Positions 7,352 to 7,689 of a DNA stretch of 9,560 bases are shown here, one piece after another. The notes below the pieces were generated by a model. It was not told where the DNA came from and searched no databases. It saw only the letters and a list, made by a program, of their open reading frames with translations. How positions within the stretch are numbered: the stretch's first letter is position 1; each line of letters starts with the position of its first letter. Source of the stretch: a virus (Duplodnaviria > Heunggongvirae > Uroviricota > Caudoviricetes); IMG/VR virus record IMGVR_UViG_3300029070_000029; one strand, 5' to 3'. The position numbers and the translations under genes were made by a program.

Positions 7352-7449
7352 ATCTTTGAGGCCCAAAACAGGGATTAGTTTGTTTCCTGCTGGATGAAAG
7401 GACTCTTGGGATAGCACATGCCGCACGAAGAGCAGCATTACATGATGTT

Positions 7450-7689
7450 TTGTCGAATGAGCTACGAATCCTGATAGAAATACGAAACAAGCTAGCACAT
7501 GGACAATGGATCTATCCCTTCAATAATGAAGGAAATACTGTGGACCCTGATAAATATAAATTAATCAATAAAGAAAACTTGCACTCACTCCAATTCAAAT
7601 ATTCATTAGCACAGCATTTAGTTGACGCTGTACATGATTTGGTTGTAAGTCCTACGACATTCGAACGAGATTTCGAAAGCCATTTTTAA
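7450..7689 (+). pseudogene. Start-less or degraded ORF with an HEPN-like R-x4-H motif; possible remnant of an abortive-infection/RNase-type gene
   Basis: Track ORF of 79 aa starting at TTG with no Shine-Dalgarno. The frame is open back to 7360 with no in-frame ATG. An ATG at 7418 is in a different frame (MPHEEQHYMMFCRMSYES*) and could be the original start separated by a frameshift. Motif EIRNKLAHG = R-x4-H. AT-rich composition. Confidence 0.3.

What the first reader, a model, noticed from the sequence alone, without database searches (positions are those of the whole stretch)
7360..7689. Degraded ORF with HEPN-like R-x4-H motif between the sit promoter and the att junction
An AT-rich 110-codon open frame (7360-7689) has no in-frame ATG, only a TTG without a Shine-Dalgarno at 7450, and a possible displaced ATG at 7418 in another frame. 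It contains EIRNKLAHG, which fits the R-x4-6-H catalytic motif of HEPN RNases found in Abi and toxin-antitoxin proteins. Prophage ends next to att are defence hotspots (e14 carries lit and mcrA at its ends), so this may be a decayed or cryptic anti-phage/toxin gene. The motif is short and could occur by chance.
Basis: inference. Interest (0 to 1): 0.5.

Follow-up and report, generated by a model that had tools for sequence, protein, structure and literature searches.

The report
Dead relic of HEPN-type toxin gene
The open frame next to the sit iron/manganese operon is the dead back half of a gene for a probable HEPN-type RNA-cutting toxin; intact copies in other bacteria always carry a tRNA-shaped RNA switch in front of the gene, which I found in neither Rfam 15 nor the paper library.

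Summary
Frame 7360-7689 is open and AT-rich, has no in-frame ATG, and encodes EIRNKLAHG. It is a gene remnant and not a chance ORF. Window 7390-7882 is 96% identical in DNA to codons 109-243 plus 85 nt of 3' flank of an intact 243-aa gene in Serratia rubidaea, Klebsiella and others. The first 108 codons and the leader are missing. They are cut off exactly where the sit cassette ends (7392/7393). Lys208 has become TAA (7687), and 12 of 15 codon changes are non-synonymous (dN/dS about 1, against 0.12-0.15 between intact copies).

The family has 531 clusters at 50% identity, spans bacteria and one archaeon, and matches no Pfam or PADLOC model. Only W90, R140, N141 and H145 are invariant. It gives repeated weak hits to HEPN profiles (RiboL-PSP-HEPN, best E 9e-7). 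It sits alone in defence islands and prophage cargo slots, for example beside Septu. Fold searches were inconclusive.

Intact copies carry a covariation-supported tRNA-like element plus a competing hairpin next to the ribosome-binding site. The window has lost this element.

Verdict: an ordinary pseudogene, but a pointer to an undescribed RNA-plus-HEPN module.

The parts
7257..7392 (-). Upstream regulatory region of sitA and end of the sit cassette. Not part of the relic, but it defines the relic's left edge.
   Evidence: About 1000 plasmid sit loci match window 7000-7392 at about 92% identity and stop there. The E. coli Nissle prophage matches to 7393 at 98.9%. The palindrome AAACATAGC-N4-GCTATGTTT at 7289-7310 was flagged by the terminator scan. 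From my own knowledge it looks like an MntR box, and 7331-7349 looks like a Fur box; neither was tested.
7388..7392 (.). Junction between the sit cassette and the truncated gene, with 3-nt microhomology (CTG).
   Evidence: Three sequences compared side by side. Plasmid sit...TTTCCTGCTG|ACGATG. Window...TTTCCTGCTG|GATGAAAG. Intact gene...GCCCCTCTG|GATGAAAG.
7390..7797 (+). Relic of the HEPN-like gene: codons 109-243 plus the native stop (TAG 7795-7797).
   Evidence: Ungapped and 96% identical to L005 8325-8732, the intact gene for P0058, which is 100% identical in protein to Serratia rubidaea NCTC12971.
7483..7500 (+). R-N-K-L-A-H, corresponding to R140-H145, the putative HEPN catalytic motif. 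It is retained in the relic.
   Evidence: R140, N141 and H145 are invariant in 123 representatives of clusters at 50% identity. Coordinates read.
7687..7689 (+). Nonsense mutation AAA/AAG (Lys208) to TAA.
   Evidence: All five intact comparators have Lys here. The same stop is present in the Bievrevirus phage copy examined, Lambda_4C10.
7798..7882 (+). 85 nt of native 3' flank of the gene module.
   Evidence: Homology to L005/L006 (96%) and L009-L011 (88%) continues to 7882 or 7876 and then stops. The same 86-90 nt are conserved downstream of intact copies at different genomic sites.
7892..8168 (.). Prophage arm next to attR at icd. Not part of the relic; it defines the right edge of the variable slot.
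   Evidence: Present in 2311 of 5426 complete E. coli genomes. Nissle homology resumes at 7892. The icd' pseudogene begins at 8169.

Best explanation
Window 7390-7882 is a non-functional remnant: the 3' 135 codons plus 85 nt of flank of a roughly 1.1-kb single-gene module that encodes a 243-aa all-helical protein with an invariant R-N-x3-H motif. This protein is most likely a HEPN-superfamily RNase acting as a stand-alone toxin or abortive-infection effector. The module once sat as cargo in the variable slot between the tail-fibre/sit region and attP of a lambdoid phage that integrates at icd. Its 5' 108 codons and its leader RNA were lost at an illegitimate-recombination junction with the end of the sitABCD cassette (7388-7392). 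The remainder then drifted neutrally and acquired a nonsense codon at 7687. It has spread clonally with the phage to about 5% of complete E. coli genomes and does nothing there. Shown: the homology, both breakpoints, the stop, the neutral substitution pattern, and conservation of R/N/H in the family. Inferred: HEPN RNase activity, a toxin or defence role for the intact gene, and the order of the recombination events. In intact copies expression is probably controlled by a 5' leader that switches between a tRNA-like fold and a more stable hairpin that buries the ribosome-binding site. By analogy with AbiF/RCd22, this RNA may also neutralise the protein.
For: Homology and breakpoints. Nonsense codon, 12 non-synonymous against 3 synonymous changes, all derived in the window lineage, dN/dS 1.0 against 0.12-0.15 among intact genes. 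No start codon or Shine-Dalgarno, and no promoter signal above chance. Same truncation and same stop in a free Bievrevirus phage (Lambda_4C10). 298 of 5426 E. coli genomes carry the relic; some copies are further cut by IS1 or deletions, and only 2 genomes have a near-complete gene, located elsewhere. Family size and invariant W90/R140/N141/H145. HEPN profile hits in divergent members (PF18735 in 22 of 123, best E 9.3e-7; HepT-like 6; MAE_28990 2), a weak PHROG abortive-infection hit, and one UniRef record named 'MAE-28990/MAE-18760-like HEPN'. Confident all-alpha model (pLDDT 92). Defence or mobile context of intact copies, with no conserved protein partner: Septu PtuA/PtuB, AbiJ/PIN/HNH, Mrr, AbiGi plus a restriction enzyme, HigBA, integrases. 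The slot between the sit end and the att arm is variable (Nissle carries a different 256-aa gene at the same two boundaries). Leader RNA in intact copies and absent from the window.
Confidence: 0.85

Rival explanations
1. The relic is still used. A 79-aa peptide starting at TTG 7450, or a longer product, carries the R-x4-H helix and acts as a dominant-negative subunit or decoy that blocks intact HEPN defence proteins of the host. That would make it a phage anti-defence factor.
For: The motif-bearing helix is retained. HEPN enzymes typically act as dimers (my own knowledge). The relic is kept in inducible free phages.
Against: There is no ATG and no Shine-Dalgarno, and promoter-like sites are not above chance. 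dN/dS is about 1, with changes at otherwise conserved positions, plus a nonsense codon. IS1 insertions and further deletions occur in some genomes. The fragment lacks four N-terminal helices, including invariant W90. Intact partners are almost absent from E. coli: 2 of 5426 genomes.
Confidence: 0.04
2. The family is not HEPN. The conserved R-N-x3-H sits in some other all-helical protein, for example a non-nuclease RNA- or tRNA-binding regulator, and the HEPN profile hits reflect only the short motif.
For: No fold-search support. No curated family threshold is shown to be passed. In the Rhodococcus protein the Pfam hits cover only about 20-30 residues around the motif.
Against: R, N and H are three of only four invariant residues across 123 diverse members, which is the pattern expected for catalytic residues. 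Twenty-two members independently hit the same HEPN model, with a best E of 9.3e-7. That remains about 1e-4 after correcting for 123 proteins. Others hit HepT-like, MAE_28990 and Abi_2 models and a Cas13e HEPN region. One hit spans profile positions 58-170 of 191. The genomic context matches known HEPN toxins.
Confidence: 0.13
3. The open frame is a chance ORF in AT-rich intergenic phage DNA, and the motif is coincidental.
For: The motif is short, and the fragment has no profile hit.
Against: 96% DNA identity over 493 nt to an intact gene, 67% protein identity to a cyanobacterial homologue, and hundreds of homologues.
Confidence: 0.01

Closest known systems
HEPN superfamily RNase toxins; nearest Pfam models are RiboL-PSP-HEPN (PF18735) and MAE_28990/MAE_18760-like HEPN (PF18737)
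   Same: All-alpha protein of about 240 aa. A single R-N-x3-H (Rx4-6H) motif is the most conserved feature. It occurs in defence islands, prophages and integrative islands. Divergent members hit these profiles.
   Different: The E. coli, Serratia and Klebsiella clade does not reach the curated thresholds. No L-PSP fusion or neighbour was seen. No structural match to solved HEPN proteins was recovered. The family has its own conserved N-terminal half (W90) and is catalogued only as phrog_12663, 'unknown function'.
AbiF/Abi_2 HEPN toxin with the upstream abiF-motif RNA (RCd22 of C. difficile), a type III-like toxin-antitoxin (bioRxiv 10.1101/2025.04.15.648962)
   Same: A stand-alone, prophage-borne HEPN-type protein preceded, on the same strand, by a conserved structured non-coding RNA. 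In AbiF that RNA represses expression and neutralises the toxin.
   Different: The RNA here is a tRNA-like cloverleaf with a competing hairpin, not the abiF motif; there was no Rfam hit other than a sub-threshold tRNA match. The protein is not Abi_2 (1 weak hit among 69). No experiment exists. The window copy has lost the RNA altogether.
Prophage cargo ('moron') and defence slots next to att, such as lit and mcrA at the ends of e14 and the lambda b region
   Same: The relic lies between the tail-fibre/sit cargo and attR at icd, the e14 site. The slot holds different genes in different strains.
   Different: The cargo here is dead. The alternative occupant in Nissle is an unclassified 256-aa protein.
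tRNA-mimicking bacterial RNAs: YrlA Y-RNA, the thrS operator, T-box partners (my own knowledge)
   Same: The leader of intact copies keeps tRNA-like D-loop GG and T-loop GGTTCGAWTCC elements and an acceptor-like stem.
   Different: The anticodon loop is replaced by a 3-4-nt loop. The acceptor stem has only about 4 conserved pairs. The 3' half is also part of an alternative 13-16-bp hairpin next to the start codon.

Membership tests
HEPN superfamily | Conserved Rx4-6H motif (often R-N/H/D-x3-H) | tested here: met
   R140, N141 and H145 are invariant in 123 representatives and invariant or nearly invariant in 69 closer ones. The motif is retained at window 7483-7500.
HEPN superfamily | Significant profile match to a curated HEPN family | tested here: inconclusive
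   The fragment and close relatives have no match above threshold. Among 123 divergent members, 22 hit PF18735 (best E 9.3e-7), 6 hit HepT-like and 2 hit PF18737. Which member gave the best hit, and whether it passes the 28.4-bit cut-off, was not displayed. Ten Bacteroidota, Firmicutes and archaeal members gave at best E 0.05.
HEPN superfamily | Alpha-helical bundle fold resembling solved HEPN domains | tested here: inconclusive
HEPN superfamily | Metal-independent RNase activity that depends on R and H | not testable with these tools
   Needs biochemistry.
Functional protein-coding gene (the window copy) | Full length, with start codon and ribosome-binding site | tested here: not met
   Codons 1-108 are absent, there is no in-frame ATG, and there is no Shine-Dalgarno before TTG 7450.
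Functional protein-coding gene (the window copy) | Purifying selection and an uninterrupted frame | tested here: not met
   K208 has become a stop. dN/dS is 1.0 against the nearest intact gene, compared with 0.12-0.15 among intact genes.
Type III-like toxin-antitoxin / AbiF-type module (RNA plus HEPN protein) | Conserved structured RNA immediately upstream on the same strand | tested here: met
   This holds for intact homologues only. Model R1 hits 73 loci, and each has a plus-strand hit 40-130 nt upstream of the gene match. Covariation: 94.9% of cells paired and 200 double-change cells against 51 +/- 10 in shuffles. There is no hit in the window.
Type III-like toxin-antitoxin / AbiF-type module (RNA plus HEPN protein) | abiF RNA motif and Abi_2 protein domain | tested here: not met
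   Rfam 15 gives only a sub-threshold tRNA match (21.6 bits against a 29-bit cut-off) and a spurious miRNA hit. Abi_2 was hit weakly by 1 of 69 members.
Type III-like toxin-antitoxin / AbiF-type module (RNA plus HEPN protein) | The RNA neutralises the toxin | not testable with these tools
   Needs co-expression and binding assays.
Genuine tRNA gene (the upstream element of intact copies) | 7-nt anticodon loop and a score above the Rfam tRNA threshold | tested here: not met
   The loop is 3-4 nt in 47 of 53 loci, often GNRA or UUCG. ARAGORN mostly reports 'tRNA-???'. The Rfam score is 21.6 against a 29-bit cut-off.
Catalogued anti-phage system (PADLOC-DB v2.0.0) | Match to a PADLOC model | tested here: not met
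   No hit for the fragment or for P0058, P0087 or P0135. The neighbouring genes in E. coli and Klebsiella match Septu PtuA (E 2e-156) and PDC-M01B.

The most novel reading that the evidence does not exclude
The relic identifies a two-part module that I found in neither Rfam 15 nor the paper library. The module is spread across many bacterial phyla and one archaeon. It consists of a stand-alone HEPN-type RNase gene whose 5' leader toggles between a tRNA-like cloverleaf (the anticodon loop replaced by a tetraloop) and a more stable hairpin that buries the ribosome-binding site. If the tRNA mimic is the sensor or the antitoxin, this would be a new tRNA-mimic-controlled toxin or abortive-infection system. 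The trigger could be a phage or host tRNA-binding factor, or the RNA could bind the RNase as in type III toxin-antitoxin systems. The window holds only its dead 3' part.
Probability: 0.45. Interest if true: 0.75.

Novelty: new variant of a known kind. Interest (0 to 1): 0.45.

Why it matters
For this window, the result removes a candidate. The stretch between sitA and attR in sit-carrying ExPEC prophages contains no hidden toxin or defence gene, only a pseudogene. It also fixes the exact end of the mobile sit cassette (7392/7393) and shows that the slot next to it is exchangeable.

More broadly, the relic led to a conserved but unnamed protein family (phrog_12663). The family has HEPN hallmarks and is almost always preceded by a covariation-supported, two-state tRNA-like leader. 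If confirmed, it would add a new RNA-controlled HEPN toxin/defence module alongside AbiF/RCd22. It would also provide a compact natural example of a tRNA mimic coupled to translational control, and this is directly testable with the Serratia or Klebsiella genes.

Tried and rejected
- Pfam and PADLOC scans of the 110-aa and 145-aa conceptual translations gave nothing.
- NCBIfam gave only weak hits around the motif: a DS11 anti-phage protein and a Cas13e HEPN region.
- Profile searches of PDB sequences with A2 and A3 gave nothing useful.
- A Pfam scan of ten distant members (Bacteroidota, Firmicutes, an archaeon), meant to find the member that passes the HEPN threshold, failed; the best was E 0.05.
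- MAFFT placed GPKQGLVCFL (7360-7389) against residues 38-47 of the protein, which suggested it might be gene-derived through an internal deletion. I rejected this because DNA homology starts only at 7390 and those bases belong to the sit cassette.
ATG 7418 opens an 18-codon frame, and the alignment to the intact gene is ungapped.
- The idea that the upstream tRNA-like element is a leftover integration target is rejected. It travels with the gene to different chromosomal sites and phyla at a fixed distance, and it shows compensatory changes.
- An Rfam scan of window 7200-8400 gave only chance-level hits.
- Pfam and PADLOC scans of the alternative Nissle cargo protein were uninformative.
- Literature searches found no description of a tRNA-like RNA linked to a HEPN gene.

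Full report
SETTING. The window is the right end of a lambdoid prophage integrated at icd in E. coli. In order it contains tail-fibre genes, sitDCBA on the minus strand (sitA at 6342-7256), an unannotated stretch at 7257-8168, the duplicated icd' end (8169-8336), then ymgL and ycgX. The finding lies in the unannotated stretch.

OBSERVATION. Frame 1 is open from 7360 to TAA 7687-7689 (110 codons) and encodes ...EIRNKLAHGQW.... The only listed start is TTG 7450, and no Shine-Dalgarno precedes it. ATG 7418 is in another frame and opens only 18 codons. GC is 0.33-0.40. The description is accurate. Reading through the TAA gives 35 further sense codons up to TAG 7795-7797, an early sign of a nonsense mutation.

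WHAT IT IS.
- The conceptual protein has no Pfam or PADLOC hit.
- tblastn finds the same fragment, with the same stop in the copy examined (Lambda_4C10), next to sitA in six free Bievrevirus lambdoid phages.
- It also finds an intact 248-aa homologue on a Kovacikia plasmid (67% identity) and a 235-aa Rhodococcus protein (29% identity).
- A database search with the intact protein returned 532 relatives of about 243 aa. They are 65-75% identical across cyanobacteria and Gamma- and Betaproteobacteria.
- The nearest relative, P0058, is identical to a Serratia rubidaea protein.
- At DNA level, window 7390-7882 aligns without gaps at 96% identity to nt 325-732 of that gene plus 85 nt downstream.

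THE TWO EDGES OF THE RELIC.
- Left edge. About 1000 ColV-type plasmid sit loci and the E. coli Nissle prophage match the window up to 7392/7393 and no further. The left edge of the relic is therefore a junction with the end of the sit cassette, with a 3-nt CTG overlap. Codons 7360-7389 are not gene-derived.
- Right edge. The right end at 7882 coincides with the natural end of the module seen at other genomic sites.
- Phage arm. From 7892 the sequence is the common prophage arm next to attR, present in 2311 genomes.
- Nissle carries a different 1.5-kb insert, with a 256-aa hypothetical gene, between exactly the same two boundaries. So this is an exchangeable cargo slot.

THE RELIC IS DEAD.
- 108 N-terminal codons are missing. 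In the structural model these form four helices and include invariant W90.
- Lys208 (AAA/AAG in all comparators) is TAA.
- Of 15 codon differences from the nearest intact gene, 12 are non-synonymous.
- In 14 of the 15 codons the outgroups share the residue of the nearest intact gene, so the change arose in the window lineage. Codon 113 differs in all three clades and cannot be polarised.
- dN/dS is 1.0, against 0.12-0.15 among intact genes.
- Promoter-like sites are not above chance.
- 298 of 5426 complete E. coli genomes carry the relic. Some copies are further interrupted by IS1 or shortened.
- Only two genomes have a near-complete gene. One, at 91% DNA identity, sits in a Qin/Rac-like prophage beside a Septu PtuA/PtuB pair.

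WHAT THE INTACT GENE IS.
- The family has 531 clusters at 50% identity. It occurs in Proteobacteria, Bacteroidota, Firmicutes, Actinobacteria, Chloroflexi, Nitrospirota and one Methanolobus.
- Across 123 representatives only W90, R140, N141 and H145 are invariant.
- Close members give only sub-threshold hits: HEPN_MAE_28990 in 11 of 69, HEPN_RiboL-PSP in 7 of 69, and a Cas13e HEPN region.
- Among divergent members, 22 of 123 hit HEPN_RiboL-PSP (best E 9.3e-7), 6 hit HepT-like and 2 hit MAE_28990.
- PHROGs lists the family as phrog_12663, unknown function, with a weak hit to an abortive-infection PHROG. PADLOC has no model for it.
- Context is that of a lone defence or toxin gene with no conserved protein partner. 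Neighbours include Septu, AbiJ/PIN/HNH, Mrr, AbiGi plus a restriction enzyme, HigBA, M78/DUF4411 and integrases. In Klebsiella the same module sits at three or more chromosomal sites.

UNEXPECTED COMPONENT (outside the window).
- The roughly 110 nt before the start codon of intact copies are conserved across phyla.
- ARAGORN calls aberrant tRNAs there. The Rfam tRNA model scores 21.6 bits, below its 29-bit threshold.
- The element has an acceptor-like stem, a D-arm with GG, a T-arm with GGTTCGAWTCC, and a stem capped by a 3-4-nt loop in place of the anticodon loop.
- A covariance model built from 10 copies found it in 73 loci. Each has a hit on the gene strand 40-130 nt upstream of the gene match, and one locus has an extra weak hit elsewhere. 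There was no hit in the window.
- Covariation is strong: 94.9% of cells paired and 200 double-change cells, against 51 +/- 10 in shuffles and at most 32 in slid controls.
- The 3' strand of the T-stem and acceptor is also the 5' arm of a second hairpin of 8-16 bp (median 13; shuffle mean 5.6 +/- 1.15).
- The 3' arm of that hairpin ends at, or overlaps, the Shine-Dalgarno sequence.
- This hairpin is likewise supported by covariation in 73 distinct sequences: 91.3% paired against 66.5%, and 340 double-change cells against 86 +/- 11.
- It is the thermodynamically favoured fold.
- The leader is therefore a two-state RNA. The default hairpin would hold translation off, and the tRNA-like fold would free the ribosome-binding site. 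That mechanism is inference.
- The nearest precedent is the AbiF HEPN toxin with its upstream RCd22 RNA (abiF motif), which represses and neutralises the toxin.
- I found no description of a tRNA-like RNA coupled to a HEPN gene in Rfam 15 or in the paper library. This does not prove novelty.

VERDICT. Three corrections apply: the damage is a truncation and not a frameshift; the ORF's stop is a mutation; and the first ten codons are foreign. In this window it is an ordinary pseudogene. Its value is as a pointer to an unnamed HEPN-like family with a conserved tRNA-mimicking leader.

Noticed in passing
L024 2891-3003 (Serratia rubidaea); same element in L005 7891-8003, L009 7892-8003, L015 8150-8261 and about 70 other loci; absent from the window: A conserved two-state leader precedes intact family members. 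It forms either a tRNA-like cloverleaf (tetraloop in place of the anticodon loop) or a mutually exclusive 13-16-bp hairpin that abuts the Shine-Dalgarno sequence. Both folds are supported by covariation. It is not in Rfam 15.
   Followed up: yes
window 7393-7892; L104 999-2497 (E. coli Nissle): The stretch between the end of the sit cassette and the attR-side phage arm is an exchangeable slot. Nissle-type prophages carry a 1.5-kb insert with a 256-aa hypothetical protein (WP_000567449.1) at the same two boundaries. That protein has no Pfam or PADLOC match.
   Followed up: partly
window 7289-7310 and 7331-7349: A perfect palindrome AAACATAGC-N4-GCTATGTTT, which the scan reported as terminator-like, and an AT-rich GAAAATGATTATCATTA stretch lie upstream of sitA. 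From my own knowledge they look like the MntR and Fur operators of the sit promoter. This was not tested.
   Followed up: no
L015 9776-12200; L009-L014 9531-11955: In an E. coli Qin/Rac-like prophage and at three or more Klebsiella chromosomal sites, the intact gene travels next to a Septu-type pair: PtuA (PADLOC E 2e-156) plus an HNH protein (PDC-M01B, E 1e-85).
   Followed up: partly
L039 (contig JAGZPX010000023.1, 1450 bp, labelled as a Veillonella parvula MAG): This short contig carries the truncated E. coli-type relic (residues 109-243, 92% identity). It is probably an E. coli or phage contig binned into the wrong genome.
   Followed up: no
E. coli records H41, H42 and H50-H54: Some copies of the relic are split by an IS1 insertion or are further shortened, which fits ongoing decay.
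   Followed up: no
L003 3692-4441 (Kovacikia minuta plasmid pA) compared with enterobacterial copies: The protein is 65-75% identical between cyanobacteria, Beta- and Gammaproteobacteria and Xanthomonas. That is unusually high for such distances and suggests recent horizontal spread of the module. The Kovacikia copy lies next to an Mrr-type nuclease gene.
   Followed up: no
window 1-4500: In the matching RefSeq record the tail-fibre region upstream of sitD is annotated as several partial or pseudogenised tail-fibre genes. This suggests the prophage tail module is itself rearranged.
   Followed up: no
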